Below, piece after piece: positions 182-25,766 of a stretch of DNA of 64,000 bases. Source of the DNA: an uncultured Candidatus Binatia bacterium (GTDB lineage: Bacteria; Desulfobacterota; Binatia; UBA9968; CAXXLF01). The translations under genes and the position numbers were made by a program. The notes below the pieces were generated by a model. The model was not told the DNA's origin. It worked only from the letters and a program-made list of their open reading frames with translations, and ran no database searches. The DNA lies in the NCBI GenBank assembly GCA_965218425.1, contig OZ244621.1, forward strand, positions 1,920,001-1,984,000, in the 5' to 3' direction. The stretch's first letter is position 1. The number at the start of each line of letters is the position of its first letter.

Positions 182-564
182 TTTGGTCCACTGGTTATGA
201 TAGGCGGCGCGGAGGGACGCCTTCATGCAGTCCCGTTCAAAAAAAGATTCCCGCCGGGCTCCCGTGTAGGCCCGCCGGGGGCGCCCCTGAAAGACCGTTT
301 ACTACCGGCGCCCGGATTGCCTGCATACCTCTAAGATAGCCTTCGGCAATCAGCCCATGGATTGCCCCTCGTTGCGGTGCGGGCTGAGCGGATTCCGGCG
401 CGGCCCTCTCTTCAAAGCCGTCGGCCTCTCTGAAGATGAAAAGCGCGCCGGCGGTTTGAGGAAACGACCACGGCGCGTTATAGTTCGTCGGGTCTATTGT
501 GCTATTTAACCGGCGTTTGGGCAACAGCTCGGCCGGACCCGGCCCCCGCGTTTAGGAATTTACC

Positions 565-1308
565 ATGGAGCAGGAACTCAAACCGGATAAGCTGGCGGTG
601 CTGATCGACGCCGATAACGCGTCGCCCGGCATTGTCACGGGCCTGATCTCGGAGATATCGAATTACGGGGTTCCATTGGTTAGTCGGGTCTACGGCGACT
701 GGACCCAGCCTCAGCTGAACTCGTGGAAACACGTGTTGCTTGGCCATGCGATACAACCCGTCCAGCAATTTCGATATACGGTTGGCAAGAACTCCACCGA
801 CAGCGCGATGATTATCGACGCCATGGACCTTCTATACTCGCGGCGGTTCCAGGGGTTCTGCCTTGTATCGAGCGACAGCGACTTTACCAGGCTCGCCTCT
901 CGAATTCGGGAAGAAGGACTTCGCGTTTACGGATTTGGCGAGAACAAGACACCGCGCGCCTTCGTGTCCGCATGCGACAAGTTCATATTCACGGAGATTC
1001 TCGTCCAGCCCGATAAATCGCAACCCGAGACCCGCCGAAAGACCACGGACCAGCTGAAACGCGATTCGAAGCTGATCGGACTGCTCAGCTCCGTTGTCGA
1101 AGCCGCCGCGGACGAGTCAGGCTGGGCTGATCATGGAACGGTCGCAAACCGGATCGCGCAGCGGTTTTCCGACTTCGATTCCCGTAATTACGGCTATGCG
1201 AAGCTGAGCGGGCTCATAGAAGCCACGCAGCTCTTTGACCTGGATAAGCGCGCAACGAGCGAAGAGGGTCACGTGCGGGTCCTGGTTCGAAAAAAGTCTG
1301 AAGACTGA
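565..1308 (+). CDS. NYN domain (LabA/DUF88, PIN-like) protein with C-terminal OST-HTH/LOTUS domain
   Basis: LAVLIDADN, RVYGDW, GKNSTDSAMIIDAMDLL, VSSDSDFTRLA, FDSRNYGYAKLS. Confidence 0.9.
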   Translation: MEQELKPDKLAVLIDADNASPGIVTGLISEISNYGVPLVSRVYGDWTQPQLNSWKHVLLGHAIQPVQQFRYTVGKNSTDSAMIIDAMDLLYSRRFQGFCLVSSDSDFTRLASRIREEGLRVYGFGENKTPRAFVSACDKFIFTEILVQPDKSQPETRRKTTDQLKRDSKLIGLLSSVVEAAADESGWADHGTVANRIAQRFSDFDSRNYGYAKLSGLIEATQLFDLDKRATSEEGHVRVLVRKKSED

Positions 1309-1375
1309 GCGTTCTGATTACCCCCCGGCGGCCCATGAGATCTGGATCGGCAAGAGTGTATATCGGCGGCGGTTC

Positions 1376-2395
1376 CTACTCGCCTTTCAGCATCCGGTCA
1401 AGTTTTTCCCGGTCTTTCTGGGACGGGTGCAGGAGTTTTCGCACGATGGGAAACGCCTCATCCGGCGAAAGGTAACCGATTACATATCCTTTTTTCTTGG
1501 CCTGATTCGTGAACTCGCGATCCCGTGTGACTTGCCTTAACGCCCACCTGAGGAACTCGACTCTTTCCTTCGGCACCCCTGGATTGGTTGCCATAAAGTA
1601 GCCTACTTCCCCGATTCTGATCCAGCTGTCCAACGGCTGAGGAATATTCTTGACGGTTTCATAGAGCGTGGGCGTATCAGGCGCCGCAGGGGCTCGCCTT
1701 TGTCCGATGTGCAATAACGGCACGACCAACCCGTCTTTGATGGCTGCGGCGTAAAGGTTCGCCCCATAGGCGGCCACGTCCACCTCTCCGCTCATCAGGG
1801 CCTGCCGCACCGAGGCGCTGCCCCGGTAGCCGGGAACGAACCTCACGTTGAGGCCCAACACCTCGCGTAGTGTGAGACCGATAAAATAATTGTTGCCGCC
1901 CAAGCGAGTCAGGCCCCATTGAAGGGGTTTATCGGCTCGCTTCAGATCCTGCAGCGATTTGAACCTCGGCTTATAAGCGAGAAGGGTGTTTTCCGTGGGG
2001 GCGACCACGCCGATCCAGTGCAATTTCTCCAGATCGTATTGAATACCCGCTCGCCCTGAAACCCTGCTGAGCGTTTGAGTCGAGCCGAGATGCCAACCCA
2101 CGGTCAATCCGTCCGGTCGGGTCCTGTTATAGAGATGATTGAACATGCCCACGCCGCTGCCCGCGGGCCGGTTCTGAAGCACGATTTTAGCGCCCGTATA
2201 CTTTTCGAAGAAAGGCGCGGTCAGCCGGGACGTTCCGTCCACGGATCCTCCCGGTGACGACCCGATCATCCAATTGATGGTCTTGCCGTTGTAAAAAGCC
2301 TTTGCCTTGGCCGGTTCTTTCTCGCCTGCGAAGCCTGCCTGTGCCGTGAGCAATGAAATCACGACCGCGATTACTGTCCCAGGTTTGCACTTCAT
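1376..2395 (-). CDS. Bug/TctC family tripartite tricarboxylate transporter substrate-binding protein
   Basis: Signal peptide; FYNGKTI..IGSSPGGSVD, NRPAGSG, PDGLT, GYRGS..VRQALMSGEVD. Confidence 0.88.
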   Translation of the reverse strand: MKCKPGTVIAVVISLLTAQAGFAGEKEPAKAKAFYNGKTINWMIGSSPGGSVDGTSRLTAPFFEKYTGAKIVLQNRPAGSGVGMFNHLYNRTRPDGLTVGWHLGSTQTLSRVSGRAGIQYDLEKLHWIGVVAPTENTLLAYKPRFKSLQDLKRADKPLQWGLTRLGGNNYFIGLTLREVLGLNVRFVPGYRGSASVRQALMSGEVDVAAYGANLYAAAIKDGLVVPLLHIGQRRAPAAPDTPTLYETVKNIPQPLDSWIRIGEVGYFMATNPGVPKERVEFLRWALRQVTRDREFTNQAKKKGYVIGYLSPDEAFPIVRKLLHPSQKDREKLDRMLKGE

Positions 2396-2703
2396 CCGAT
2401 TCTCCTTTCGGGAGCGGCCTTTGGCGGTATCCGTCCCCGGCGAGAGTAGGTTACTCGAATTGAGCGCCTCGAGTCAATCCTCTATGGAAGGTTGGAAGAC
2501 GCGTCATAGGGGTCGCCTTGAAAAATGCCGTATTCAAGGTGTTCGACCTTTCGCGCCCCGGTTTCGATTTAACGGCCCTTTCAGGGCCGTTTTTCGAGCC
2601 CTGAACGCCCCGGAAGAAGGTGGGATGTTCCAGGCTCGCACATGCGGCAAGGGGGGCGGCCGTATTGAAATTCCCTCCGTTGATTCGCCCGTCATGCCCC
2701 GGC

Positions 2704-2893
2704 TTTATCTGGTTCCTCTAAGACGGCCGGATCTATCTGGCCGACAACGCCGCCGAGCGGGCGCTGCAAGGTATTGCGCTCGGCAGAAAATCGCGGCTTC
2801 TCGCCGACTCCGATCACGGTATCGACGGTGCGGCCCTGGAAGGAGTGACGGTAGACGCCCAGGCCCTGTCGATATGGCGCGGTTGCGGCTTAC
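2704..2893 (+). pseudogene. IS66-family transposase (TnpC) remnant with possible right end
   Basis: 2722-2820 translates DGRIYLADNAAERALQGIALGRKSRLLADSDHG (IS66 NN.AERALR.IALGRK..LFAGSD.G motif); in-frame stop just before; segment ends ...CGGCTTAC at 2893, like IS66 GTAAG termini. Confidence 0.75.
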
Positions 2894-2930
2894 CGTTGCG
2901 CATGGCGGGACAGGTGGTAGATTGAAAAGC

Positions 2931-5381
2931 ATGGACAAGAAAAGCCTCAGCGAACGTGACATCTGCACCAAGTTCATCACACCCGCCCTGCGCAAAGCCG
3001 GATGGGACGAGATGGCGCAGATCCGCGAGGAGGTGAGCTTCACCAGGGGCCGCATCATCGTGCGCGGCAAGCTGGTCAGCAGGGGCGTGGGCAAGCGGGC
3101 CGACTACATCCTCTATTACAAGCCCAACATCCCCGTCGCCCTGATCGAGGCCAAGGACAACGCCCACGCCATCGGCGACGGCATGCAGCAGGGGCTGGAC
3201 TACGCCGAGGCCCTGCATATCCCCTTCGTGTTTTCCTCCAATGGCGACGGCTTCGTCTTCCACGACCGGACGGGCGCGGCTGCCGAGAGGGAAACCACCC
3301 TCGGCCTTGACGCCTTCCCATCGCCGGCAGACCTGTGGGCGCGCTACCGCGCCTGGAAGGAGCTCACGCCCGAGTCCGAGGCCGTCGTCCTCCAGGACTA
3401 CTTCGATGACAGCGGCGGCAAGGCCCCGCGCTACTACCAGGTCAATGCCGTCAACGCGGCCATCGAGGCCATCGCCAGGGGGCGCGAACGCATCCTTTTG
3501 GTCATGGCCACCGGCACCGGCAAGACCTATACGGCTTTTCAAATCATCTGGCGGCTTTGGAAGGCGGGCCGCAAGAAGCGCATCCTGTTTCTGGCCGACC
3601 GCAACGTGTTGATCGACCAGACCATGGTCAACGACTTCCGGCCTTTCGGCGCGGCAATGGCGAAGCTCTCGACGAAAGCCAAGACCATCGAACGCTTGGA
3701 CGGCTCTTCCGAGGACCTGACCAACGCCATCGACGGAAGACGGCGTATCGACACCGCCTACGAGGTCTATCTGGGTCTCTATCAGGCGATCACCGGGCCG
3801 GAGGAACATCAGAAGATTTTCCGCGAGTTCTCGCCCGGCTTCTTCGATCTCATCGTGATCGACGAGTGCCATCGGGGCAGCGCCGCCGAGGACTCCGCCT
3901 GGCGGGAGATCCTGGAGTACTTCTCGTCGGCCACGCAGATCGGCCTGACCGCCACCCCGAAGGAGACCAGATACGCCTCCAACATCCATTACTTCGGCGA
4001 GCCGGTCTATTCCTATTCCCTGAAGCAGGGCATCCAGGACGGTTTCCTCGCCCCCTACAAGGTCATCAAGGTACATATCGACCGTGATGTGGAAGGCTAC
4101 CGCCCGGAGAAGGGGCAGCTTGATCGAGACGGCATCGAAGTCGAGGACCGTCTCTACAACACCGGGGACTTCGACCGCACGCTGGTCCTGGACGAGCGGA
4201 CCAAGCTCGTGGCCCGGAAGGTCACGACGTTCCTGAAGGAAAGCGGAGACCGCTTCCAGAAAGCGATCGTCTTCTGCGTCGACCAGGAACACGCGGCCCG
4301 GATGCGTCAGGCTCTGATCAACGAGAACGCCGACCTGGTGGAAAAGGTCCACCGCTACGTGATGCGCATCACCGCCAACGATGCGGAAGGGCAGGGGCAG
4401 CTCGACAACTTCATCGACCCGGAATCGAGATACCCCGTGCTGGTCACCACATCGCGGCTCCTTTCCACCGGCGTCGACGTCCAGACCTGCCGGCTCATCG
4501 TGCTCGACCGAGAGGTGGGCTCCATGACCGAGTTCAAGCAGATCGTCGGGCGCGGCACCCGCGTGCATGAGGACACCCGCAAGCTCTACTTCACCCTGAT
4601 GGACTTTAGAGGCGCGACCGGCCATTTCGCCGATCCGGATTTCGACGGCGAACCGGTTCAGATTTACGAGCCTGGCAAAGACGATCCGATGACGCCGCCC
4701 GAAGATAATCCGCCTACGGACGACTGCGTTTACCCCATACAGTCGGAAACGGGTGATGACAACCCCGTCGTTAAAGACCCGCCCGACACCACCGCGCCGA
4801 ATACCGGCGGTGGCGTTCGCAAAGTCTATGTGGACGGTGTCGCCGCGATGATCATTGCCGAGCGGGTGGAATATCTCGACGAGAACGGCAAGCTCGTCAC
4901 CGAGTCCCTGCGCGACTTCACCAAAAAGGCGCTGAGGAAGCGCTTCGCCAGTCTGGACGACTTCCTGAGGCGCTGGAAAGCCGCCGAACGCAAGCAGGCG
5001 ATCGTCGAGGAACTGGCAGTCGAGGGCCTGCCGCTCGACATCATCACCGAAGAACTGGGCAATGACCTCGATCCCTTCGACCTCATCTGTCACGTCGCCT
5101 TCGACGCCAAGCCGCTGACCCGGCGCGAGCGAGCCGAGAACGTCAAGAAACGGGACGTGTTCAGCAAATACGGGGACCGGGCCCGCGCCGTGCTGGATGC
5201 TCTACTCGCCAAATACGCCGACGAGGGCGTGCTCAACTTGGATGACGCCAACGTGCTGCGCATCCCGCCCTTCACCCGACTCGGCACGCCGGTGCAGTTG
5301 ATCGGGGCCTTCGGCGGGCTGGAAGACTTCGTCGAGGCCGTCCACGAGCTTCAATCCGCCCTCTATCGAGAGTCCGCTTAG
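2931..5381 (+). CDS. hsdR: Type I restriction enzyme R subunit, EcoAI/EcoEI-like
   Basis: ATG at 2931 (MDKKSLSERDICTKFITPAL); ADYILY..IEAK nuclease motif, MATGTGKT Walker A, DECHRG, QIVGRGTR, EcoEI_R_C-like tail. Confidence 0.95.
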   Translation: MDKKSLSERDICTKFITPALRKAGWDEMAQIREEVSFTRGRIIVRGKLVSRGVGKRADYILYYKPNIPVALIEAKDNAHAIGDGMQQGLDYAEALHIPFVFSSNGDGFVFHDRTGAAAERETTLGLDAFPSPADLWARYRAWKELTPESEAVVLQDYFDDSGGKAPRYYQVNAVNAAIEAIARGRERILLVMATGTGKTYTAFQIIWRLWKAGRKKRILFLADRNVLIDQTMVNDFRPFGAAMAKLSTKAKTIERLDGSSEDLTNAIDGRRRIDTAYEVYLGLYQAITGPEEHQKIFREFSPGFFDLIVIDECHRGSAAEDSAWREILEYFSSATQIGLTATPKETRYASNIHYFGEPVYSYSLKQGIQDGFLAPYKVIKVHIDRDVEGYRPEKGQLDRDGIEVEDRLYNTGDFDRTLVLDERTKLVARKVTTFLKESGDRFQKAIVFCVDQEHAARMRQALINENADLVEKVHRYVMRITANDAEGQGQLDNFIDPESRYPVLVTTSRLLSTGVDVQTCRLIVLDREVGSMTEFKQIVGRGTRVHEDTRKLYFTLMDFRGATGHFADPDFDGEPVQIYEPGKDDPMTPPEDNPPTDDCVYPIQSETGDDNPVVKDPPDTTAPNTGGGVRKVYVDGVAAMIIAERVEYLDENGKLVTESLRDFTKKALRKRFASLDDFLRRWKAAERKQAIVEELAVEGLPLDIITEELGNDLDPFDLICHVAFDAKPLTRRERAENVKKRDVFSKYGDRARAVLDALLAKYADEGVLNLDDANVLRIPPFTRLGTPVQLIGAFGGLEDFVEAVHELQSALYRESA

Positions 5382-5384
5382 CCC

Positions 5385-6842
5385 ATGTCCGTCCGCACCC
5401 TCGTCAAATCCATCCAGAACATCATGCGCCAGGACACCGGCGTGGACGGCGACGCCCAGCGCATCAGCCAGTTGTGCTGGATGTTCTTCCTCAAGATCAT
5501 CGACGATCAGGACAGGGAACTGGAAGTGATGCAGGGCAATTACAGGTCTCCGATTCCAGAGAAGTTCCAGTGGCGCAAGTGGGCGGCGGACCCCGAGGGC
5601 GTCACCGGCGAAGAGCTGCTCGCTTTCGTTAACGACGACCTGTTCCCGGCCCTGAAGAACCTCCGGACGACGGGACATCCCGCCGACCGCCGCCGCGTCG
5701 TCGGCGGCGTGTTCGAGGACGCCCATAACTACATGAAGTCCGGCCAGTTGATGCGCCAGGTGGTCAACAAGATCAACGAGGTCGATTTCAACAACCTGAC
5801 CGAACGCCAGCATTTCGGCGACATCTACGAGCAGATCCTCAACGACCTGCAATCGGCGGGCAACGCCGGCGAGTACTACACGCCGCGCGCCGTCACCGCC
5901 TTCATGGTGGACCGCATCGACCCGAAACTTGGCGAGACCCTGTTCGACCCCGCCTGCGGCACCGGCGGCTTCCTCACCTGTTCGCTGCGCCACATGCGCG
6001 GGCGCTACGTGAAGCGGCCCGAGGATGAGCAGACCATGCAGGCAACGCTCCGCGCGGTGGAGAAGAAGCAGCTCCCGCACATGCTCTGCGTCACCAACAT
6101 GCTGCTGCACGGCATCGAGGACCCTGGGTTCGTGCGCCACGACAACACCCTGGCCCGCCCCTATATCGGCTGGGAGCAAAAGGACCGCGTGGACATCGTG
6201 CTCACCAACCCGCCCTTCGGCGGCAAGGAGGAGGACGGCATCGAGTCGAACTTCCCGCAACACTTCCGCACTCGCGAGACGGCGGACCTGTTCCTCGCTC
6301 TCATCATCCGCCTGCTGAAGCCGGGCGGGCGCGCCGCTGTGGTGCTGCCCGACGGATCGCTGTTCGGCGAGGGAGTAAAGACCCGCCTCAAGGAACACCT
6401 GATGGAGGAGTGCAACCTCCACACCATCGTCCGCCTGCCCAACTCCGTGTTCCGCCCTTATGCCTCCATCGGAACCAATTTGCTGTTCTTCGAGAAGGGC
6501 GAGCCGACCGGGGACATCTGGTTCTACGAGCACTTGGTGCCCGAGGGTCAGAAGGCCTACTCCATGACCAGGCCCATCCGCTTCGAGCATTTGCAAGGCT
6601 GCATCGACTGGTGGGGCGGGGCGGCGCGCAAGGGCCGGAAGGAGACCGAGCGGGCCTGGAAGGTGACGGCCGGCGAGGTCAAGGCGCGCGGCTACAACCT
6701 CGACATCAAGAACCCGCACACGCAAGGCGGCGACCACGGCGATCCCGACGAGCTTGTGAAGAAACTAAACGCCTCTGAGGGCGAAACGGCGTCCTTGCGC
6801 GATCGGTTGAAGGCGATCCTGGCCGAGGCGCTCATGCGATGA
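5385..6842 (+). CDS. hsdM: Type I RM N6-adenine methyltransferase subunit
   Basis: IMRQDTGVDGDAQR, GEYYTPR, DPACGTGGF, NPPF. Confidence 0.96.
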   Translation: MSVRTLVKSIQNIMRQDTGVDGDAQRISQLCWMFFLKIIDDQDRELEVMQGNYRSPIPEKFQWRKWAADPEGVTGEELLAFVNDDLFPALKNLRTTGHPADRRRVVGGVFEDAHNYMKSGQLMRQVVNKINEVDFNNLTERQHFGDIYEQILNDLQSAGNAGEYYTPRAVTAFMVDRIDPKLGETLFDPACGTGGFLTCSLRHMRGRYVKRPEDEQTMQATLRAVEKKQLPHMLCVTNMLLHGIEDPGFVRHDNTLARPYIGWEQKDRVDIVLTNPPFGGKEEDGIESNFPQHFRTRETADLFLALIIRLLKPGGRAAVVLPDGSLFGEGVKTRLKEHLMEECNLHTIVRLPNSVFRPYASIGTNLLFFEKGEPTGDIWFYEHLVPEGQKAYSMTRPIRFEHLQGCIDWWGGAARKGRKETERAWKVTAGEVKARGYNLDIKNPHTQGGDHGDPDELVKKLNASEGETASLRDRLKAILAEALMR

Positions 6843-8614
6843 ACGCCGAACGACTGCTGGCCCATTACGAAAGGATTGCCGATGCGCCTGATGCGATTGC
6901 GCGATTGCGTAGATTCATTCTCGACCTGGCCGTGCGGGGCAAGCTGGTGGAGCAGGACCCGAACGACGAACCGGCGTCGGAGCTGTTGAAGCGGATCGCG
7001 GCGGAAAAGGCGCGGTTGGTGAAAGCTGGGGAGATCAAAAAGATCGCAGTAGACCCTACTGATCTAAACAACGCGCCGTTTCACCTTCCACTTGATTGGA
7101 CTTGGTCAACTGTCGGAGAGCTTATGCACGTCGAGATGGGGCAGTCGCCTCCATCTGAACACTATAATCAATCAGGAGATGGCTTGCCGTTTTATCAGGG
7201 CAAGACGGATTTTGGTCCCCGACACCCTTCACCCAGATACTGGTGCACCCAACCAAGAAAGCTCGGGCTTTCAGGAGACATTTTGATCTCTGTACGTGCC
7301 CCTGTGGGTCCTACAAATCTAACCGAAAAAAAGTGCTGTATTGGACGTGGGTTGGCTGCCCTGAGACCATACGCTGGCGTGGACACAGACTTTGCCCTCA
7401 TCTCATTAAGGGCATTCGAACCGAGCATTGCGGCCATGGGATTCGGATCGACATTTGTTGCTATCAACAAGAGGCAATTAGCCCTTTTTCTATTCCCCCT
7501 CCCACCACTCGCCGAACAGCACTGCATCGTCGCCAAGGTCGATGAACTGATGGCCCTCTGCGACCGGTTGGAGGCGGAGCGGACGGAGCGGGAGGCCACG
7601 CGTGACAGACTTGCATCAGCAAGCCTCGCCCGTCTCGACACGCCCGATCCCGACCCGGTCACATTCCGAAACCACGCCGCCTTCGCCCTCGGCAACCTCA
7701 CCCCCCTCACCACCCGCCTCGACCAGCTCAAGGCCCTCCGCCAGACCATCCTCAATCTCGCCGTCCGCGGCAAGCTGGTGGAACAGGACCCGAACGACGA
7801 ACCGGCGTCGGAATTGTTGAAGCGGATCACGGTGGAACGAAACGATCTTGTGGCACAGAAAACCATCCGCCCAGAGAAACCCTCAGATGCAATTGATGCA
7901 GACGAGCCCCCGTTTAAGGTCCCGAGCGGATGGGAATGGTCACGCATCGGAAATGCGGTGCTTTTCAGCCAATACGGCACATCAACAAAGTCCTCCCCTT
8001 CGGAGCAAGGCGTTCCCGTGCTTACTATGGGCGATATCCAGGACGGCTTCGTCGTTTGGCGGAATGAAAAGAGGATTCCGTACTCGGCGGAAAAACTTCC
8101 CGCATTGTACCTGAAGCAGTTTGACTTGTTATATAACCGGACCAACAGTGCGGAACTTGTGGGGAAAACGGGCATCTACCTCGGCGAAGATGATTGTATG
8201 ACGTTTGCCTCTTATCTGATTCGCGTGAGGGTTTCCAGTGAGCACTTCTCCCCTCATTTCCTAAATTTGACAATGAACACACCTGAGTTTCGCGAAACCC
8301 AGATCGTGCCACTGATTAAGAAGCAAACGGGACAAGCGAACGTTAACGGGACTGCATTGAAGCATATGTTGGTTCCAGTTCCACCCCTCGCCGAGCAGCA
8401 CCGCATCGTCGCCAAGGTCGATGAACTGATGGCGCTTTGCGACCGACTAGAGGCGAGCCTCTCCACCGGCGACGACACCCGCCGCCGCCTGCTCGACGCC
8501 CTGCTGCACGAAGCGCTGGGATCGGGCGCAGAGAAAACCCAGCAGGATATCCCCATGATCGCTCAAAATACGTCTGCTCCCTCAAAAGTTAGGCAGACTC
8601 TACATTCATGCTGA
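6839..8614 (+). CDS. hsdS: Type I RM specificity subunit (two TRDs)
   Basis: ATGA overlap with hsdM; duplicated LAVRGKLVEQDPNDEPASELLKRI and PPLAEQH.IVAKVDELMALCDRLE blocks around two variable domains. Confidence 0.95.
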   Translation: MNAERLLAHYERIADAPDAIARLRRFILDLAVRGKLVEQDPNDEPASELLKRIAAEKARLVKAGEIKKIAVDPTDLNNAPFHLPLDWTWSTVGELMHVEMGQSPPSEHYNQSGDGLPFYQGKTDFGPRHPSPRYWCTQPRKLGLSGDILISVRAPVGPTNLTEKKCCIGRGLAALRPYAGVDTDFALISLRAFEPSIAAMGFGSTFVAINKRQLALFLFPLPPLAEQHCIVAKVDELMALCDRLEAERTEREATRDRLASASLARLDTPDPDPVTFRNHAAFALGNLTPLTTRLDQLKALRQTILNLAVRGKLVEQDPNDEPASELLKRITVERNDLVAQKTIRPEKPSDAIDADEPPFKVPSGWEWSRIGNAVLFSQYGTSTKSSPSEQGVPVLTMGDIQDGFVVWRNEKRIPYSAEKLPALYLKQFDLLYNRTNSAELVGKTGIYLGEDDCMTFASYLIRVRVSSEHFSPHFLNLTMNTPEFRETQIVPLIKKQTGQANVNGTALKHMLVPVPPLAEQHRIVAKVDELMALCDRLEASLSTGDDTRRRLLDALLHEALGSGAEKTQQDIPMIAQNTSAPSKVRQTLHSC

Positions 8615-9221: not shown

Positions 9222-9311
9222 TCAGGCCGGTTTCTTGTAACGAAGTGACTTCCCAAAGAGAGGCCGGACCAGCCGCACGGGTCGTCGAGCGTAATGGGGA
9301 TGTTCAGGCAC

Positions 9312-9490: not shown

Positions 9491-9529
9491 CAATAACTTT
9501 TGAGAAGGCGAGATGAATCATGTCATGTG

Positions 9530-16710: not shown

Positions 16711-16798
16711 AATCAACGATGTCAATTTCCAGCCGCCTCCGAAATCTTCTATCCGCCTCACGCTTTAAGTGAATCCCGTGGGGCCGGTATCGGGCACA

Positions 16799-16897
16799 CC
16801 TTCTTGCTATTCTGGGTTCCCTCCCCTTTCGGATTCCGGCTTGTATCGTGCCAATTCTCTTGTGTAAATTCCTGTCCATTTGGACGCGGTGTTCCAA
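16799..16897 (-). repeat. Island repeat copy E (promoter module only, degenerate)
   Basis: CCTTCTTGCTATTCTGGG...TTTCGGATTCCGGCTTGTAT...TGGACGCGGTGTTCCAA matches copy A. Confidence 0.85.
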
Positions 16898-17211
16898 CCA
16901 GCCCAACCCACGGCTCATCGTTCCGGCAACACGACTGAAATGTCGGGCAACCTCATCGGATTGGCAGCCCTTGAAGGATCGAAAGGTAACGTTTCCGGTC
17001 ATCGTCATCGCGGAGGATGAGCCGGCCTAGGTTGCCCCGACTGACCTGCCTTGTCGGCAGACAGGTGGCGCGATAAAGGGCACCGGGAAAATGGACGCGG
17101 GGGTTTCTTGCCACGTCGTGTCTGTGTCATTGAGCGCATCAAATAGCAAAGGGGAAAGCCTGACCCGCATTACGAAGTAGTCAAAAATCAGGGGTGAGAG
17201 GAGCCACCCAA

Positions 17212-18321: not shown

Positions 18322-18772
18322 AGGGCCGGAGTCAGGTAAAAGGAGCAGGCCCCAAGCTTTACGTCGGAATAGACTATCACAAACGATACGTCCGGCTAAA
18401 TGCCATCGACGAGGTACCCATCGGCGGAGCGGATCGGAATAATTGAGAACGGCCGGGAAAATCTGGAGCAAAACGACCCGTAAACCGCCCATGCAAAGCC
18501 CCTTAAAGGGCCGTGCAACGACCGCGCCGGCGTGGTCGTCGGCGGGCGCGGATTCAGGATTACTTGATGGCGATAGCGCACAACATCGAGCCGTCGATTG
18601 ATCATGCACGGCCAAAGCCCACAGCGGTTATGGCTGCGGCAACGAACGGGGCCACGGCCTTCCAGCAAGCAGTGGGGGTTTGAGCAAACAAACTCGGAGC
18701 GGTTATAGATCGGTTGGATCTATTGCGCTATTTAACCGACGTTTGGGCAACAATCCGACAAGACGTGACCCC
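18322..18772 (+). repeat. Composite linker: repeat copy F (end + IS110 stub + module Y), module Z, module W, TGACCCC end
   Basis: GGAGTCAGGTAA at 18328; 18566-18697 matches 25637-25766; 18699-18752 matches 475-525; TGACCCC at 18766-18772. Confidence 0.85.
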
Positions 18773-18841: not shown

Positions 18842-20479
18842 TCAGAAGCGCCCCTCGTTCAGCCGCCACCAAACGTCGGTTCCCTTGAGGGCCGCGTTTC
18901 CTTGCGCCCAATCCCAAGGCGTCTTGCCGTTCTTGTCCCTCGCCTTGATGTCGGCTCCGCCGTCGATCAGCTTGGCAACGACGGCAGGATTTTTGTTGAA
19001 CCCTGCCACCAAGTGCAGAGGCGTCACGCCGCCCTCGCCCCTCGCTTTGATGTCGGCTCCGCCGTCGATCAGCTTGGCGATCATGGCAGGATTTTTGTTG
19101 AACCATGCCGCCCAGTGCAGGGGCGTCTTGCCGTTCTTGTTCCTCGCCTCGATGTCGGCTCCGCCGTCGATCAGCGCGGCGATCATGGCAGGATTTTTTT
19201 TATTGAACCCTACTGCCAGGTGCAGGGGGGTCTCGCCGTTCTTGGTTCTAGCCTTGATGTCGGCTCCGCTGTCGATCAGCGCGGCGACCATGGCAGGATT
19301 TTCGTTAAAACTTGCCGCCGCCAGGTGCAGGGGGGTCTTGCCGTTCTTGTCCCTCGCCTCGATGTCGGCTCCGCCGTCGATCAACGCGGCGATCATGGCT
19401 GGATTTTTGTTGAACCCTACTGCCAGGTGTAGGGGGGTCTTGCCGTACTTGTCCCTCGCCTCGATGTCGGCTCCGCCGTCGATCAGCGCGGCGATCATGG
19501 CAGGATTTTTGTTGAACCATGCCGCCCAGTGCAGGGCCGTGTCGCCGTTCTTGGTTCTAGTCTTGATGTCGGCTCCGCTGCCGATCAGCTTGGCGATCAT
19601 GGCAGGATTTTCGTTGAACCTTGCCGCCAGGTGCAGGGCCGTGTCGCCCTTACTGGTTCTAGCCTTGATGTCGGCTCCGCCGTCGATCAACTTGGCGATC
19701 ATGGCAGGATCTTTGTTGAACCCTGCCGCCAAGTGCAGGGGCGTCTCGCCGTTCTTGGTCCTAGCCTTGATATCGGCTCCGCCGTCGATCAACTTGGCGA
19801 AAACGGCAGGATTTTCGTTGAACCCTGCTGCAAAGTGTAGGGGGGTCTCGCCGTTCTTGGTTCTAGCCTTGATATCGGCTCCGCCGTCGATCAACTTGGC
19901 GAAAACGGCAGGATTTTCGTTGAACCCTGCCGCCACGTGCAGGGGCGTCTCGCCGTTCTTGGTTCTAGCCTTGATGTCGGCTCCGCTGCCGATCAACTTG
20001 GCGATCATGGCTGGATTTTTGTTGAACCCTGTTGCAAAGTGCAGGGGGGTCTCGCCGTTCTTGTCCCTCGCCTCGATGTCGGCTCCGCCGTCGATCAGCG
20101 CGGCGATCATGGCAGGATTTTTTTTATTGAACCCTGCCGCCAGGTGCAGGGCCGTGTCGCCCTTACTGGTTCTAGCCTTGATGTCGGCTCCGCTGCCAAT
20201 CAGTGTGGCGACGACGGCGGGATTGTCGTTGTCCCTTGCCGCAAAGTGCAGGGGCGTCCAGCTGTACTGGTCCCTCGCTTCGATGTCGGCTCCGGATGCC
20301 AGACAATCCCTGACCGTCATGGGCGTCGCCGTCTTGAAGAACTCCTCCGTGTTCCAGTCCCCGCAATCCGCCGCAATGGACGAACGGCCCCATGCGCCGA
20401 GGGCGAGGAACAAGACGCCAACAACCACCAGCCCGCCAAACCGGGCCGTCACATTGTCGGTGATTCGGTGTAATTCCAT
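18842..20479 (-). CDS. Exported ankyrin-repeat protein (13 complete repeats)
   Basis: Hydrophobic N-terminus; 13 x T(P/A)LH..A..N.NPA....LI..GADI.AR; ~102-105 bp DNA repeats. Confidence 0.95.
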   Translation of the reverse strand: MELHRITDNVTARFGGLVVVGVLFLALGAWGRSSIAADCGDWNTEEFFKTATPMTVRDCLASGADIEARDQYSWTPLHFAARDNDNPAVVATLIGSGADIKARTSKGDTALHLAAGFNKKNPAMIAALIDGGADIEARDKNGETPLHFATGFNKNPAMIAKLIGSGADIKARTKNGETPLHVAAGFNENPAVFAKLIDGGADIKARTKNGETPLHFAAGFNENPAVFAKLIDGGADIKARTKNGETPLHLAAGFNKDPAMIAKLIDGGADIKARTSKGDTALHLAARFNENPAMIAKLIGSGADIKTRTKNGDTALHWAAWFNKNPAMIAALIDGGADIEARDKYGKTPLHLAVGFNKNPAMIAALIDGGADIEARDKNGKTPLHLAAASFNENPAMVAALIDSGADIKARTKNGETPLHLAVGFNKKNPAMIAALIDGGADIEARNKNGKTPLHWAAWFNKNPAMIAKLIDGGADIKARGEGGVTPLHLVAGFNKNPAVVAKLIDGGADIKARDKNGKTPWDWAQGNAALKGTDVWWRLNEGRF

Positions 20480-20750
20480 CACTCTAACTCCCATAACTTT
20501 GCGAGCGCATCTCTTTGCCCGGCCGCGCGCCGATAGCCGTAACGTGCGTGGGACAACGGGACAAGCCATGACCGGATGACCCCGGGTGAGCATTACCATA
20601 TTTTTGAGAAGGTCTGCTAAACAAAAGGCGCGAAAGATGGAGGCGGGGCGCAATCCCCGTCAGGCTTGCTGACAGCGTCCTTGTCCCGTCACTCTTGTTC
20701 AAGATGTCGGCCGCGATGCTGTCGGCGGTCCGTGCCCCCGATGTCTATCC

Positions 20751-21289
20751 CTAAGCGAAATTGCAATTCTTCCTGCCGGCCATTTTTTCCGAAGTCGTCA
20801 TTCCAAAAACACATTCCCTGATGAATTCACCATCTCCGGAGCGGCCATACACCACGTCGCCATTCTCGTCATAGATGGTCTGGGTGATCGACACGACTTC
20901 GCCCCGATGGTGCTGAACGATGAGCACCTGCTCGTTCCCCAACTCCCCGACAAAAACATCGGTGAGGTATCTCTCCGTGCTCGTGCTCACGACGGGGACG
21001 GCGGCGTCTGCCAGGAAACTGACCTTTACGGTGTTGTCCCGATTCACCGTTACGGAACAGCTTTCCCCCGTCGTTTCAAAATCCACCATGAGTCTTTGCA
21101 TGAAGCCCCTCGCGGGTATGTGGACGCAACCATGGCGTGTTTCCGCCTTTAATTTTTCCTGGCTTCGAGGCGGGTGCAATAGAAGCTGCTTCACATAGCT
21201 TTTGGTCAAGGGCTGCTCGGCGGCGCTATTGCAGATTATTGCAAAGAGAAAAAAAGTGTAGAAATCAAAACAAATTTCATCTTTTTCAT
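20751..21289 (-). pseudogene. Exported hypothetical protein frameshifted in a T7 tract
   Basis: ATG at 21289 gives MKKMKFVLISTLFFSLQ*; one extra T at 21249-21255 fuses it to the downstream frame as MKKMKFVLISTLFFLFAIICNSAAEQP. Confidence 0.65.
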
Positions 21290-21393
21290 TCAACGCCCCT
21301 CATATGATATGGCAATCCACGTCACCATGTCATCGCAACGCCTGAAAATGGGCCGAAACGACTGTGCCCGGCTCCCTCACCCAAACCGTGGTT

Positions 21394-21715
21394 GGTGTCA
21401 GGTAACATGAAAAAGGGGTCAAGCCCCGGCAGGGTGGCGGTTGTAGAGGCCATCAAACATGAAAGGAAAAGACCCCATGCTTTAAGTCGGGATAGACTAT
21501 CACAGACGATACGTCCGGCTAAATGCCATCGACGGGAAAGGGAACCCCCGGGCTCACACTCGACTTTCCGACGACTTGAGTACGGTGGAGGACTTTTTCC
21601 GGTCCCTGAACGAGCCATGCAAAGCGGAAATGGGCCGGAAACCGGCCGGATTTTCCGGGGCGTTCAGGGCTCGGAAACTGAGCCTGAAAGGGCCTTTAAA
21701 TCGGGACGGGCAGCG
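21394..21715 (+). repeat. Island repeat copy G (end + leader + IS110 stub) plus module Y
   Basis: GGTGTCAGGTAACATGAAAAAGGGGTCAAG...GACCCCATG; 21655-21715 is the reverse complement of 2565-2615 and 15386-15420. Confidence 0.9.
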
Positions 21716-22043
21716 TCGATACGTTGCCGTTGTATCCGTATCGATCCTTAGACTTGCTGGTACACAAAATCACAATCCGCCGTCGGTGCCGCTGTTCGCA
21801 ACATGTGGTCCGCGCGAATTCGTTTCTCCGGATTGATCCCCGTGTAGAACAGCGCAGGCTGAGGAGGCGGATGATGACCCGTCATGGCTTTGCTCCCTGA
21901 ACACAGATAAAGCTCGGAGCATTATATCCATAGGACTTGCTTGACGCGCTAAAGATATCGATTCGGGCAGCAGCCAGTTTTGTTGACGAATAGTTTCGGA
22001 CGGAAAAAAACTCCGAAGAAACTCTATTCGTCCACCGGCATTT

Positions 22044-23123
22044 TCATACGGTGCACCACTCGACCATACTCTTCATGCGGCACTGGGCTCCGCCGGCGGC
22101 CAGGTCTTTCTCAAACATACGATGGATATCCCGGGCTTCATCCTCATACTCAATCTGTTGCCCCCCCTCTTCCTTCACGTCCTTACTTGTTTCCTTGGGA
22201 AATATAGCCGAGCTGATATAGTACTTGGTACCGGAATGCTTCAGGGCCATGTAGCGGACCGGCGTTGGCCCCGTATTGAAGTGCTGGTGGAACCACATCT
22301 GCGGGGGCACAAACATGCTCCCCGCCTGCCAGTCGACGCGGATCTTCTCCTTCCCCTCGGACCAGAACAGACTGAAGCCATGGCCGCTCAGTATGATCAC
22401 GTGGGCGCCGGGACCGTGCCGGTGAGCCTTTTTGTAGGTGCCCACGGGAAACTCGGATATAAAAGCGTCCATGAGATTATCCGCCAGTTCGAAGCCGGTG
22501 TGGGTCCCCCCGGCGCCCCGGCGCTCCGCGCCCGTGCACATCTGAAATTGCCTGACATCGGCAATGAAATTACTCTCCCAGTGTCCTTCCCACAGCCAAT
22601 CTCCCTTTCCGTTAAAATAGCCTTCCTGGCCCTGATAGCGGTCGGAAAAAACGTACGGGTTGCTGTAAACAAAATTCTTGCTGTGGAATAGATTCATGAC
22701 CAGCGGCGCATTCGTCACCGCCATGAATCGAGCCGGTTTGTCTCCTTGACCGTTGAAGTGCTGGTGGGAGGCATTCAACGGTATGGCAAACAGGCTGCCC
22801 TCCTGCCATTCGAAAGTCTGCTTGGCCCCGCTTTCAGACCACACGGAGGTGGCTCCCCGCCCCTGGAGCACGAAAACAAGCTCTTCAAAGAGGTGCCGGT
22901 CGGGCTGAAGACTTTCCCCGGGAGGGATCTCACTGACATAGGCATCGTCGCAGTCTCCCGTCCCTTCAAGGTTGATGTAGGCGCCCGACCCGCCGCGCCG
23001 CTTCCAGGGGCCCAGTTCTACGCTGTTCAAATCTTTGACATTTAACCCGCCATAGACCGGGAGCCCTTCCTCAGCCTGCCAGTCCCGGTAAGTATTGATC
23101 CGCGTTTTGTTATCGACTGCCAT
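22044..23123 (-). CDS. Bicupin domain protein (gentisate 1,2-dioxygenase-like fold)
   Basis: RBS AAGGAAGGAG; RHLFEELVFVLQGRG, HQHFN, KAHRHGPGAHVIILSGHG, WFHQHFN. Confidence 0.88.
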   Translation of the reverse strand: MAVDNKTRINTYRDWQAEEGLPVYGGLNVKDLNSVELGPWKRRGGSGAYINLEGTGDCDDAYVSEIPPGESLQPDRHLFEELVFVLQGRGATSVWSESGAKQTFEWQEGSLFAIPLNASHQHFNGQGDKPARFMAVTNAPLVMNLFHSKNFVYSNPYVFSDRYQGQEGYFNGKGDWLWEGHWESNFIADVRQFQMCTGAERRGAGGTHTGFELADNLMDAFISEFPVGTYKKAHRHGPGAHVIILSGHGFSLFWSEGKEKIRVDWQAGSMFVPPQMWFHQHFNTGPTPVRYMALKHSGTKYYISSAIFPKETSKDVKEEGGQQIEYEDEARDIHRMFEKDLAAGGAQCRMKSMVEWCTV

Positions 23124-23240
23124 CGTCAACTCCTTCCTTAGATGAGAAGCCGGGATTAAATCCCGGGCTTGCCACGCTTCCCGTTTGCCCGCTCCGACGT
23201 GGTTGTCAAAATACTCGAGTTTGAAGCCGGGCTCGGCTTT

Positions 23241-23428
23241 GCCTTCTTGCCATTCCGGGTACCCTTCCCTTTCGGATTCCGGCTTGTATTGTACCAGTTC
23301 TCCTTTGGAATGTCCTGTCCACATGGACGCGGTCCACCAAGGCATGGGGTCTTCTCCTTTCAGGTTTGATGGCCGCTACAACCGCCGTCCTGCTGGAGCT
23401 TGACCCCTTTTTCATGTTACCTGACCCC
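23241..23428 (-). repeat. Island repeat copy H (full)
   Basis: Ends TTTTCATGTTACCTGACCCC at 23428; near-identical to copy I. Confidence 0.93.
23288..23316 (-). promoter_or_regulatory. Putative sigma70 promoter inside repeat H, facing the cupin gene
   Basis: AGGACA-17 bp-TACAAT with TGn extension (copy I has TGGTATAAT). Confidence 0.55.
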
Positions 23429-23432
23429 CGCC

Positions 23433-23711
23433 CGGAGAGAGCCTACCGCATTCACGAAAGGTATGGTCCAGGGTAAGCGAGTGAGACTGGAGTATGACCA
23501 AGCTAACGCCCACATCGAACACAAAGACAGGTTAAGTAGGACCCTCGCCTATGTATTCCTAGGAGATGGCGCGTTCCTCCATGCAGAGATCATCAAGCAG
23601 GGGTATGGGTTTGCGTATACCCGGTTTCCGTTTAAGTACCTGGACGAGTTCAGGCGCTACGAACGAGAGGCGAGAGAGCAGCGTAGAGGGCTTTGGGGGG
23701 AGAGTAGGTAG
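23433..23711 (+). pseudogene. 5'-truncated thermonuclease (SNase) family gene
   Basis: AFTKGMVQGKRVRLEYD...KDRLSRTLAYVFL.DG.FL.AEIIKQGYG...EREAREQRRGLW; the N-terminal half is missing and the fragment begins at the repeat end. Confidence 0.82.
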
Positions 23712-24098
23712 CCACTGATCCTCAACAGTCCCAACTGTGTCACTTTCTTGTGTAGATCTGCTCCTGCAAAGTTCTCCATTGGATGATCTCCTTTCCTGCT
23801 ACTGGACTTGTCGTGTACAATACGACAAAACCTCGACCGAGGACCATTCCGTTTATGGGATCAATTAATGCGTCGATTAATTGCATCTTGTAATGATTGA
23901 CAACCTTTTCCCATGTGATAATGGTACCTTAGTAATAAGACAATAAGAGTCACCTCCAGCATTGAGAAGGTTTCTAGTGCAAGTGAGCCTCAACCAAAGA
24001 AGTGGGCTGACCAGTGGCTCTTTCGGGAATTCTTGGGTTCGTGTTGACCGCTCCTCAAATGCAGATTCCTATCATTTTCAAGCACGGAGGGACCTATC

Positions 24099-24671
24099 AT
24101 GGCTACATTCTCAATTCATCCGGACGTCGACAATGGCCTGAAGCCTGCCGGCCCCGACTTCGCCGGGGGCACTCTCAACTGTCATTGCTCCAGTGACAAG
24201 GTATCCGTCTCGATATCCGCGCAATGTGCCCACAACCATGTGTGCGGCTGCACCAAGTGCTGGAAACCGGAGGGCGCCCTGTTCTCGCAGATCTCCGTCG
24301 TCCCGCGCGAGAGCCTCAGTGTGACGGCCAACGAGGACAAGCTCCAGATCGTAGACAAGAACGTCGCCATTCACCGATATGCATGCAAGGGTTGCGGCGT
24401 GCACATGTATGGGCGCATCGAGAACAAGGACCACCCGCTCTACGGCCTCGATTTCATTCACACGGAGCTATCCGACGACGAAGGCTGGGCGCCGGCCGAG
24501 TTCGCCGCCTTCGTGTCGTCCATCATCGAGTCGGGCACCAACCCGAACGACATGGACGCCATACGCGCCAGGATCAGGGAACTCGGCCTCGAGCCGTACG
24601 ACTGCCTCTCGCCGCCGATCATGGATCTAATCGCGACTCACACCGCCAAGGCGTCGGGCTTGCTAAGCTGA
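24099..24671 (+). CDS. gfa: Glutathione-dependent formaldehyde-activating enzyme (S-(hydroxymethyl)glutathione synthase)
   Basis: [56 protein letters not shown]. Confidence 0.95.
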
Positions 24672-24743
24672 CGGATGAAGGTCAGGACCCATCCCTGAGT
24701 TGCCAATCACCAAAGGGGCTCAAGTGCCCCTCCACCCGATTCT

Positions 24744-24869
24744 AAGGAGTTAAAGAGGCGCTGGTCTTACTTTATCCGTATGGTGTACGAAACAGATCCT
24801 CTTATCTGTCCCATGCGTCACGGGGAGATGCGGATTATCAGCTTTATTGGCCAGCCCGAAGTCATTATT
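24744..24869 (+). pseudogene. IS91/ISCR-like (Y2) transposase C-terminal remnant
   Basis: RRWSYFIRMVYETDPLICPMRHGEMRIISFIGQPEVI resembles the W..LI.KVYE.DPL.CP.C.GEMRII.FI motif. Confidence 0.72.
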
Positions 24870-24967
24870 CACGCCAAATGCGCTTAATTAGCTCTTTAAA
24901 TTAATCCTGGCGGTCCAACCCTAAGCAAACCCAGGCCCAGAGCGGCTTTGAGGGTTGTGTCAGACTT

Positions 24968-25155
24968 GCCTTCTTGCTGTTCCAGGTTTCCTTCCCTTTC
25001 GGATTCCGGCTTGTATTATACCAGTTCTCTCTTGGAATGTCCTGTCCACTTGGGCGCGGTCCACCAAGGCATGGGGTCTTCTCCTTTCAGGTTTGATGGC
25101 CGCTACAACCGCCGTCCTGCTGGAGCTTGACCCCTTTTTCATGTTGCCTGACCCC
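24968..25155 (-). repeat. Island repeat copy I (full)
   Basis: Ends TTTTCATGTTGCCTGACCCC at 25155. Confidence 0.93.
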
Positions 25156-25636
25156 GGCCATTCCCTGCGGATGCGATCAATTCCGATCTGAACCGAGACT
25201 CTCACGCCGTGGGTAAACTTTCCGTATCGGGGCGAAGAAGATTATTGAGACAGGCAGACGGATGCGTGTAGCGCCCGTCTTATTATCACGTTTAATTGTC
25301 ACGCCGGCGGCGAAGCCGCTCGAACCTGATCCTACCCGACCGCATCTTCCACGAGCCTCGGCATCGTGCGCAGCAGCGTCGCCGGCTCCAGGCGTTCGGT
25401 GACCGCCTTGGCCGTGTAGCGCCTATGCTTGAGCGAAGCAGTGCATGGGCATTCTACTTTGTATAGGGTTATTCCTCCAAATTCGCGTACTTCCCCTCTT
25501 CTCCCCCCCAGGGCTTTGAAGGTCTGATTGTCCATCATGGCGTTATGTGCTGACCAACTATGCAGGTGTGCTCCCTCGGATCAATCGCGATACATCATAT
25601 TCCATGACCGTTTCCCCATGCTGGTTTCGAACCCGC

Positions 25637-25766
25637 TGACGATAGCGCAGAACATCGAGCTGTTGATTGATCGTGCACGGCCAAAGCCCGGAGGGGTTAT
25701 GGCTGCGGCAACGAACGCGGTTACGGCCTTGCGGCAAGCGGTGGGGGCTTGAGGGAACAAACACGA
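25637..25766 (+). repeat. Module Z, second copy
   Basis: Direct repeat of 18566-18697 (GATAGCGCA.AACATCGAGC...GGTTATGGCTGCGGCAACGAAC...GTGGGGG.TTGAG). Confidence 0.85.

What the first reader, a model, noticed from the sequence alone, without database searches (positions are those of the whole stretch)
475..25766. Cassette-array-like island: cargo genes punctuated by a family of GGGGTCA-ended non-coding modules
SEEN: at least nine diverged copies of one module, in both orientations: A 9312, B 10481, C 12537, D 15386, E 16799, F 18322, G 21394, H 23241, I 24968. None was seen beyond 25.8 kb. Full copies read GGGGTCAGGTAACATGAAAAAGGGGTCAAGCTCC.GCAGG..GGCGGTTGTAGCGGCCATCAAACCTGAAAGGAGAAGACCCCATG. 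Nearly every 1-2 gene block of unrelated origin (TIR, Shedu, HNH+wHTH, lipoproteins, EEP nuclease, ankyrin, cupin, gfa) is separated from the next by one. INFERENCE: this looks like an integron-like accretion platform for defence and accessory genes, but with no IntI or recognisable attC sites. Each acquisition would leave a decaying copy of the same element end.
Basis: partly seen in the sequence, partly recalled or inferred. Interest (0 to 1): 0.85.

Follow-up and report, generated by a model that had tools for sequence, protein, structure and literature searches.

The report
Transposon-end repeats joining island cargo genes
The repeat between the defence and accessory genes is a miniature, gene-less remnant of a little-studied single-strand transposon, and its ends are repeatedly joined to foreign DNA at a nearly fixed spot, which may be how such gene islands are trimmed and rearranged.

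Summary
The repeat is real, but it is neither confined to this island nor an integron site. It is a 200-274 bp chimera: a GGGGTCAG terminal inverted repeat (TIR), the leader and first 0-60 codons of an IS110 transposase, the 3' end of a Y1-HUH transposase gene (TIRYT) and its TIR. An intact TIRYT of that type lies elsewhere in the genome. There are 65 loci (8 in this window), clustered in about 10 islands, while young IS families are dispersed. In the window, cargo genes lie outside alternating inward TIR pairs. No integron integrase, attC excess, consistent target duplication or empty site was found. Beyond debris, there is one rule: duplicated DNA stops 2-5 nt outside a TIR at 25 of 152 TIR ends (13 independent events) versus 21 of 1500 random points. 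The same roughly 5-nt boundary appears in two related genomes and in metagenome contigs. Best reading: TIRtron-derived mini-elements whose ends are cut and rejoined one at a time, trimming and importing neighbours, plus recombination between copies. The enzyme is inferred, not shown. This scan reached 'TIRtron debris' before on two other islands of this genome.

The parts
476..546 (.). IS1182-like end remnant followed by a degenerate TIR; left edge of the island
   Evidence: 476-527, 87% to an intact IS1182-like copy; TIR read by eye
565..2395 (.). Cargo: NYN-domain gene (+, 565-1308) and TctC-like gene (-, 1376-2395); 469-2611 is duplicated at 98.5% in another island
2931..8614 (+). Cargo: type I restriction-modification R, M, S
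   Evidence: start read from sequence
9300..9544 (-). Unit A: T1-type TIR at 9300, TIRYT 3' end (9304-9398), IS110 leader (9410-9484), T2-type TIR at 9544
9530..10366 (-). Cargo: CAP12/Pycsar-type TIR-domain gene; its stop codon lies inside the T2-type TIR
10487..10932 (.). Unit B: 24-nt module head (+), integrase-downstream fragment, left part with 20-codon IS110 stub (10638-10787, -), Y-type TIR at 10932
11053..12465 (+). Cargo: Shedu SduA
12525..12722 (-). Unit C: complete 198-bp module
12800..14988 (-). Cargo: HNH gene and Mrr_N-domain gene
15036..15656 (.). Unit D: Z-type TIR at 15036, repeat X, left part with IS110 stub (15518-15656, -)
15804..16710 (+).
16786..17167 (-). Unit E: internally deleted T1 TIRtron (5' and 3' ends of the TIRYT gene between both TIRs)
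   Evidence: left TIR read by eye
17212..18291 (-). Cargo: EEP nuclease; 16955-20893 is duplicated (87-91%) in another island, where it is cut off at a Y-type TIR
18328..18772 (.). Unit F: shortened left part with IS110 stub, repeat X, IS1182-like remnant, Z-type TIR at 18772
18842..20653 (-). Cargo: ankyrin-repeat gene
20751..21388 (-). Cargo: ORF 20751-21293 without Pfam match; the 97% copy of 20761-21388 elsewhere in the genome stops 5 nt before the TIR of unit G
21394..21986 (+). Unit G: TIR, IS110 leader, about 50 codons of IS110 stub with a stop, repeat X, IS1182-like end; no partner TIR found
22044..23123 (-). Cargo: double-cupin gene
   Evidence: start read from sequence
23229..23428 (-). 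Unit H: complete 199-bp module; IS110 leader hairpin at 23342-23419
23400..24671 (+). Cargo: SNase fragment and gfa (24099-24671)
24956..25155 (-). Unit I: complete 199-bp module
25295..25765 (.). Repeated remnants including an IS1182-like piece; right edge of the island
50928..51920 (+). Separate T3-type TIRtron: TIRYT gene in two frames between GGGGTCAG TIRs, outside the island

Best explanation
The module is a non-autonomous derivative of a TIRtron (a Y1-HUH transposase gene between GGGGTCAG inverted repeats). Shown: its right part is the 3' end and TIR of a T1-type TIRYT gene, and its left part is a TIR head plus the leader and stub of an IS110. Inferred: the IS110 inserted into the TIR, and deletions between short direct repeats then gave the 274, about 240-255 and 200 bp forms, which multiplied. 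Shown: foreign DNA is joined to TIR ends 2-5 nt (mode 5) outside GGGG, one end at a time, with no consistent target duplication, sometimes inside a gene. Inferred: TIRYT acting in trans nicks single-stranded DNA just outside a TIR and joins that end to other DNA. This deletes or trims neighbours and sometimes brings in a copied segment. Homologous recombination between the many copies and horizontal transfer then move unit-plus-cargo blocks between islands, and selection leaves whole genes tightly bracketed by TIR pairs. It works like IS-end-driven accretion (adjacent deletion, one-ended transposition), not like an integron.
For: Parents: intact 325-aa Y1_Tnp + Bac_DnaA_C-like protein with about 26-bp TIRs, 77-80% identical to the right parts; IS110 stub 82% identical to L042, whose leader also follows GGGGTCAGG, while L043/L044/L045/L047 have other flanks there. 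Clustering against 81 copies of 7 young IS families, 4 of them in islands covering 6.7% of the genome. Junction rule: 25 of 152 TIR anchors against 21 of 1500 random island anchors, 13 non-redundant events; 9 of 62 segment ends within 12 nt of a TIR end against 1.2% expected. A 3.9-kb, 99% copy of non-island DNA ends inside a gene 2 nt from a T2 TIR. G001/G002 flanks stop 2-5 nt before TIRs in 6 distinct cases. One metagenome TIR end is joined to 3 unrelated flanks sharing about 5-6 outer nt. At an orthologous TIRtron site both flanks differ by 24 and 12 nt right at the outer 5 nt. Junctions at the left-part end also fall at -2 to -5, not at the IS110 boundary. Mosaic copies: 446 of 666 site pairs four-gamete incompatible. 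HUH chemistry joins a 3'-OH to the 5' end at the cut (PMC8266576, passages).
Against: No activity of any TIRYT is shown here or in the papers found. 53 of 62 breakpoints are not at TIR ends, and 98 of 160 TIR flanks have no second copy to test. Only one clear case imports DNA from outside an island as a multi-gene copy, and its other end is 854 nt from any TIR. The direction of events (capture versus insertion followed by deletion) cannot be read from junctions. No empty site (0 of 32 units), circle or excised form was seen. The IS110 parent was not found complete. Why the islands sit where they do is unexplained: 1 of 10 is within 10 kb of a tRNA/tmRNA against 33% at random. Recurrent mutation could explain part of the mosaic signal (30 of 37 sites are transitions).
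Confidence: 0.62

Rival explanations
1. Passive mobile-element graveyard: mini-TIRtrons simply insert (two-ended) into dispensable islands, and later deletions, other IS elements and homologous recombination scramble the flanks. TIR ends do not capture or trim genes.
For: 53 of 62 breakpoints lie elsewhere, several inside repeat interiors; copies are mosaic; IS1182-like, IS66-like and integrase fragments lie in the same islands; two earlier scan notes read it so (unchecked).
Against: An insertion also puts a junction at the TIR end, but it should leave both halves of the target. 0 of 32 units had contiguous flanks in G000 or the fetched loci; in 7 of 12 donors the continuation is single-copy; orthologous flanks shorten from the outer 5 nt.
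Confidence: 0.22
2. A dedicated integron-like platform: each cargo block is a cassette added at a fixed site, leaving one decaying module per acquisition.
For: Regular alternation of inward TIR pairs and cargo, with gene ends mostly 35-165 nt from a TIR; defence-rich cargo; strong clustering.
Against: No IntI over cut-off in the genome; attC-like core pairs 2 against 3.6 in shuffles; cargo on both strands; junctions cut inside genes; duplicated blocks rarely have TIRs at both ends; about 10 islands.
Confidence: 0.07
3. The joins are made by a tyrosine recombinase that binds the TIR and carries a 5-nt coupling sequence (as recalled for Tn916/Tn554-type elements), not by TIRYT.
For: The outer 5 nt are TIR-type-specific, variable, and only partly match the donor.
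Against: TIRs directly bound TIRYT genes. Of 5 PF00589 matches, none is in this window, 2 look like housekeeping Xer-size proteins, and the 2 in islands are broken.
Confidence: 0.04
4. An IS110 bridge recombinase uses the module's left part as its recombination site and shuffles cargo.
For: IS110 leader with a conserved hairpin in 41 copies; IS110 elements are described as RNA-guided recombinases (listing only).
Against: Breakpoints lie outside the TIR, not at the IS110 boundary; TIR types without any IS110 part behave the same; no matching IS110 right end or intact parent found, and the two intact IS110 are another family.
Confidence: 0.03
5. Repeat-driven misassembly of a metagenome bin.
For: Repeat-rich bin; no contig spans the whole stretch; the best run may be the source sample.
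Against: Contigs bridge module-cargo joins without differences in X1 (e.g. 9496-10747, 21011-23357, 23401-25012) and with 0-1 differences in X2 of another study (15618-16740, 22054-23296, 23757-25012); copies are 10-19% diverged; shared junctions recur in G001/G002.
Confidence: 0.02

Closest known systems
TIRtron / TIRYT (Di Nocera et al. 2013, PMC3733652); TnpA-Y1 subclass 2.1.2 (Quentin et al. 2018, PMC6006769); RAYT group 1 (Bertels et al. 2017, PMC5581495)
   Same: Y1-HUH transposase with C-terminal Bac_DnaA_C-like HTH, flanked by TIRs fitting GGGGWSAS; TIRs form repeat families with dimers and clusters.
   Different: The passages read describe TIR repeats and genes only. They do not describe 200-600 bp TIR-bounded derivatives with an IS110 stub, clustering in defence islands, or a junction position about 5 nt outside the TIR. 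They show no activity.
REP/REPIN with TnpA-REP (PMC8266576)
   Same: Non-autonomous repeats tied to an HUH transposase in trans; cleavage near the repeat and joining of a 3'-OH to the cut end.
   Different: No CT cut site or uniform GTAG foot was seen; the whole module does not fold as one hairpin (z -0.77); copies cluster in islands rather than spreading through intergenic space.
IS110 elements that target REP repeats (IS621, ISPpu9; listing and abstract start only)
   Same: An IS110 leader sits directly behind a palindromic-repeat head (GGGGTCAGG), in G000 and in L042.
   Different: The target is a TIRtron TIR; only a stub remains and it travels as a passenger.
Integrons / CALINs (recalled)
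   Same: Short defence and accessory gene blocks separated by repeats.
   Different: No IntI, no attC excess, both orientations, junctions inside genes.
IS-mediated adjacent deletion and one-ended transposition, including ISCR/IS91-type capture (recalled)
   Same: One fixed element end joined to variable points; nested truncation of neighbours.
   Different: Symmetric TIRs, several TIR types, and a variable 5-nt word carried outside the TIR.

Membership tests
TIRtron/TIRYT (parent element) | Y1_Tnp HUH domain with Y---NP motif | tested here: met
   PF01797 E 2.7e-17, over cut-off; HVH and Y-IHL-NP motifs in the sequence
TIRtron/TIRYT (parent element) | C-terminal HTH (Bac_DnaA_C, HTH_23 or HTH_28) | tested here: met
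   PF08299 E 1e-5, 25.9 bits, under the 31.5 cut-off
TIRtron/TIRYT (parent element) | Gene flanked by TIRs fitting GGGGWSAS | tested here: met
   T2 fits at both ends; T3 fits at one end and has one mismatch at the other; T1 has one mismatch at each end of a 26-bp TIR
TIRtron/TIRYT (parent element) | Phylogenetic placement in subclass 2.1 / RAYT group 1 | not tested
   No tree built; assigned from domain and TIR features only
TIRtron/TIRYT (parent element) | Transposase acts on the TIRs | not testable with these tools
   Needs biochemistry
MITE | Short, TIR-bounded, no coding capacity, multicopy | tested here: met
   25 joined modules of 198-275 bp; only stubs of genes
MITE | Target-site duplication and empty sites | tested here: not met
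   20 of 32 units with no direct repeat, the rest 2-4 nt at free offsets, no null run; 0 of 32 empty sites
Integron | Integron integrase IntI | tested here: not met
   TIGR02249 best 93 bits against cut-off 265
Integron | attC sites | tested here: not met
   Simple core-motif scan: 2 against 3.6 +/- 2.7 in shuffles; IntegronFinder could not be run
Integron | Cassettes in one orientation | tested here: not met
   Cargo on both strands
IS110 | DEDD N-terminal domain | tested here: met
   Stub PF01548 E 0.005; relatives L042 E 1e-4 and L043 E 2e-17
IS110 | Complete transposase with PF02371 and a right end | tested here: not met
   Only 2 full IS110 in G000, both a different family
IS110 | Bridge RNA | tested here: inconclusive
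   Leader hairpin z -3.1 to -5.7 in 5 of 5 leaders; consensus fold failed on the alignment; no Rfam match

The most novel reading that the evidence does not exclude
TIRYT transposases (subclass 2.1, reported in 14.9% of strains with no activity shown) drive an HUH-based gene-capture system. TIR ends are cut 5 nt outside GGGG and joined to almost any DNA, so TIR-pair units act as portable junction sites that import, trim and reorder defence genes. That would be a functional analogue of integrons built on single-strand chemistry.
Probability: 0.25. Interest if true: 0.8.

Novelty: new variant of a known kind. Interest (0 to 1): 0.48.

Why it matters
TIRYT-type genes are the second largest subclass of Y1 transposases (PMC6006769), yet the papers found give no substrate, cut site or evidence of mobility. 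The junction rule seen here names a substrate (the TIR plus 5 outer nt) and a predicted cut position, so the enzyme can be tested directly. If it holds, it explains how defence and accessory islands without integrase or tRNA anchor are assembled and trimmed. If only the passive reading holds, the finding is a well-described pile of mini-transposons.

Tried and rejected
The two intact IS110 copies are not the parent. No full-length parent IS110 among 9 loci from genome contigs; the closest are truncated or frameshifted. The left part was found in 0 of 300 genomes drawn from the phylum and in 2 of 40 relatives. The G001 island edge at L053 had no adjoining continuation to test. tRNA anchoring: 1 of 10 islands; no clear replichore bias. 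Left-right distance correlation among 22 modules was negative (Mantel r -0.36) and is not interpreted; one truncated right part may distort it. Consensus RNA fold failed; Rfam found nothing in 1-30000. Plasmid search gave 3 distant records only. An ungapped mismatch count was out of register and was redone. Loose ends in the read call were dominated by hsdS and ankyrin repeats, with 448 rows hidden, so strain variation at TIRs could not be counted. A look-up of earlier findings by sequence gave nothing.
Full report
OBSERVATION. The window is G000:1920001-1984000 of a 4.46-Mb single-contig genome; related loci are titled Candidatus Binatia. All nine sites hold parts of the repeat, in both orientations. 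C, H and I are complete units of 198-199 bp. A has another head, B is a 24-nt stub with a second copy at 10638-10787, D, F and G are left parts, and E is a right part. The family is genome-wide: 41 left and 50 right parts merge into 65 loci, 8 of them here. They are clustered: median nearest neighbour 2.0 kb against 24 kb at random, 0 of 10000 simulations, with 10 groups of two or more. As a control, 7 young IS families (81 copies) put only 4 copies into those spans, which cover 6.7% of the genome.

WHAT THE MODULE IS. The left part runs from GGGGTCAGG through a 75-nt leader into an ATG. The longest stub gives 60 codons with a weak PF01548 match (E 0.005), 82% identical to the IS110 in L042. 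In four more distant IS110 loci the leader starts at the same point behind different flanks; in L042 it follows GGGGTCAGG. So the IS110 begins after the TIR head, and the TIR was probably its target (inference). The leader folds as a hairpin covering the ribosome-binding region in 5 of 5 leaders (z -3.1 to -5.7), which explains the second GGGGTCA. The right part is the last codons of a Y1 transposase whose stop codon lies in the closing TIR. An intact 325-aa gene of this type lies at 2583264-2584241, with PF01797 over cut-off, a sub-cut-off Bac_DnaA_C hit and 26-bp TIRs; window right parts are 77-80% identical to it. The 25 joined modules fall into size classes of about 200, 235-257 and 274 bp; the 200-bp class can be derived from the 274-bp class by deletion between short direct repeats (inference). 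The two intact IS110 genes of the genome are another family.

ARCHITECTURE. The module is one of several TIR types (T1, T2, T3, Y, Z; my labels). A scan found 119 ends at up to 5 mismatches, 100 in or near islands, and none in 1.5 Mb of shuffled DNA. In the window the ends alternate: 9300/9544, 10487/10932, 12525/12722, 15036/15656, about 16786/17167, about 18328/18772, 21394 unpaired, 23229/23428, 24956/25155 (two ends read by eye). Debris of TIRYT, IS110 and an IS1182-like element (DUF772 + DDE_Tnp_1_6) lies inside the pairs, and cargo genes lie outside. Genome-wide, 35 inward pairs have a median of 273 bp, 34 outward gaps a median of 2.4 kb, and 61 neighbours point the same way, so other islands are less regular than this one.

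JUNCTION RULE. Of 62 ends of low-copy duplicated segments, 9 lie within 12 nt of an outward TIR end, against 1.2% expected; 53 do not, and the segments are partly redundant. With TIR ends as anchors, 25 of 152 have a paralogous alignment ending at -8 to +2, against 21 of 1500 random island anchors. The peak is at -5 (14 counts, 9 from one duplicated junction). The 25 reduce to 13 events, still enriched (Fisher about 1e-6). Examples: window 20761-21388 has a 97% copy that parts 5 nt before unit G. A 3.9-kb, 99% copy of non-island DNA (1795494-1799364) ends inside a gene 2 nt from a T2 TIR, though its other end is 854 nt from any TIR. In fetched parts of G001 and G002 (76 TIR ends in overlapping loci, most without a G000 match), six distinct flanks stop 2-5 nt before a TIR and one at 9 nt. 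A metagenome scan with the T2 TIR gave 26 stretches: three share one inner end joined to unrelated flanks, with about 5-6 outer nt in common. At the orthologous rsmI-modA site, L162 and G000 carry the same TIRtron, but L162 is 24 nt shorter right after the outer 5 nt on one side and 12 nt shorter on the other; G001 has a 352-aa gene in place of the element. The outer 5 nt are TIR-type-specific yet variable and match the donor over only 0-3 nt. Events look one-ended: 0 of 32 units had an empty site in G000 or the fetched loci, and no consistent target duplication appeared. In 7 of 12 donors the continuation is single-copy; in the other 5 the extra hits are paralogues, orthologues or module interiors, one of which was not followed up. 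Copies are mosaic, with 446 of 666 informative pairs incompatible, although 30 of 37 sites are transitions.

ASSEMBLY. Six runs of two studies hold parts of the stretch. Contigs of X1 bridge module-cargo joins without differences (for example 9496-10747, 21011-23357, 23401-25012), and X2 of the second study does so at 15618-16740, 22054-23296 and 23757-25012 with 0-1 differences. None spans the whole stretch, and X1 may be the source sample. One X4 contig matches 21083-21388 exactly and then leaves; the genome's own paralogue has 8 mismatches there, so this may be a strain variant breaking at unit G. It is a single record.

MECHANISM. Shown: composition, parent types, clustering, the position of junctions. 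Inferred: TIRYT in trans nicks single-stranded DNA just outside the TIR and joins that end to other DNA, as HUH enzymes join a 3'-OH to the tyrosine-linked 5' end (PMC8266576, passages). Repeated one-ended events trim or replace neighbours, recombination between copies moves blocks, and selection keeps whole genes. Confidence 0.62. The main rival (0.22) is plain insertion followed by unrelated decay, since an insertion also leaves a junction at the TIR. The missing second halves and the flanks shortened from the outer 5 nt argue against it, but direction cannot be proven from junctions. An integron-like platform fails on IntI, attC and orientation. IS110 action is unlikely because breaks fall outside the TIR and TIR types without IS110 behave alike. 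Island position is unexplained: 1 of 10 is near a tRNA.

KNOWN SYSTEMS. TIRtrons and TIRYTs with GGGGWSAS TIRs were named by Di Nocera et al. (PMC3733652, passages) and equated with subclass 2.1 by Quentin et al. (PMC6006769, passages); Bertels et al. call these RAYT group 1 and find them the most IS-like of the true RAYT groups (PMC5581495, passages). IS110 papers were seen as listing and abstract start only. 'TIRYT' occurs in only two works of the library. Searches found no paper on TIRtron-derived mini-elements in islands or on their junction position. The library lacks most subscription papers, and no supplements were read; those of the two TIRYT papers may bear on this. Integron, Tn916 and ISCR comparisons are recalled. 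Two earlier notes of this scan read other islands of this genome as TIRtron debris; I had reached the family before looking, and the junction tests here go against their 'nothing shows capture' only in part.

VERDICT. Real repeat, known family, new variant: an IS110-bearing mini-TIRtron, with a testable junction rule. Interest 0.48. The boldest reading, an HUH-based gene-capture system, has probability 0.25 and would deserve 0.8.

Noticed in passing
window 50928-51920: A T3-type TIRtron with its gene in two frames; G001 keeps only a single TIR remnant at the same site.
   Followed up: partly
G000 1404076-1405066 (L065) and L162: A T2 TIRtron stands in place of a 352-aa HTH-type gene between rsmI and modA. 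The rsmI stop overlaps one TIR in G000 and the other TIR offers an in-frame ATG for modA.
   Followed up: partly
window 23342-23419 (-); L042, L043, L045, L047 leaders: Conserved long hairpin in this IS110 family's leader that covers the ribosome-binding region; a translational brake or part of a bridge RNA.
   Followed up: partly
G000 695014 and 729740; L116-L118, L124: IS1182-like elements start 15 nt inside TIR heads of several types; 2 of 4 intact G000 copies have such a head at one end.
   Followed up: partly
L051:13032, L117:16205, L118:7431 and 9778, L125:3100, L127:13364: One identical 15-nt flank, probably another IS end, replaces the first two G of TIRs of four types in G001: a third element that targets TIRs.
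   Followed up: no
L062 versus L055 and L059: Module-bearing stretches of 1.9-4.0 kb are 99.5-99.7% identical between G001 and G002, which are listed as different genera: recent transfer or a binning artefact.
   Followed up: no
window 2565-2615, 15387-15480, 18440-18515, 21628-21716: Repeat X (about 90-150 nt, 17 copies in G000) joins IS110 stubs, TIRYT ends and IS1182-like ends; its origin was not found.
   Followed up: partly
window 10506-10622: Piece also found just downstream of a 450-aa phage-type integrase next to the tmRNA gene (G000 2538095-2538208); a possible attachment-site remnant.
   Followed up: partly
L148:731-809, L149:347-425; L150; G000 205642-205657: 79-bp TIR-dimer hairpins like REPINs, and tandem duplication of the 7-nt TIR head in two unrelated places.
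   Followed up: no
G000 1-5096 and 4446398-4459497 versus 3289962-3306887: Both contig ends together repeat an internal 17-kb stretch at over 99.9% in inverted orientation; a real duplication or an assembly overlap.
   Followed up: no
window 2720-2830: Short piece that reads like an IS66 transposase C-terminal fragment (by eye) just before the type I RM operon.
   Followed up: no
window 24038-24671: gfa is 94% identical to a gene present twice in G001, inside an 8-kb duplicated block with other flanks.
   Followed up: partly
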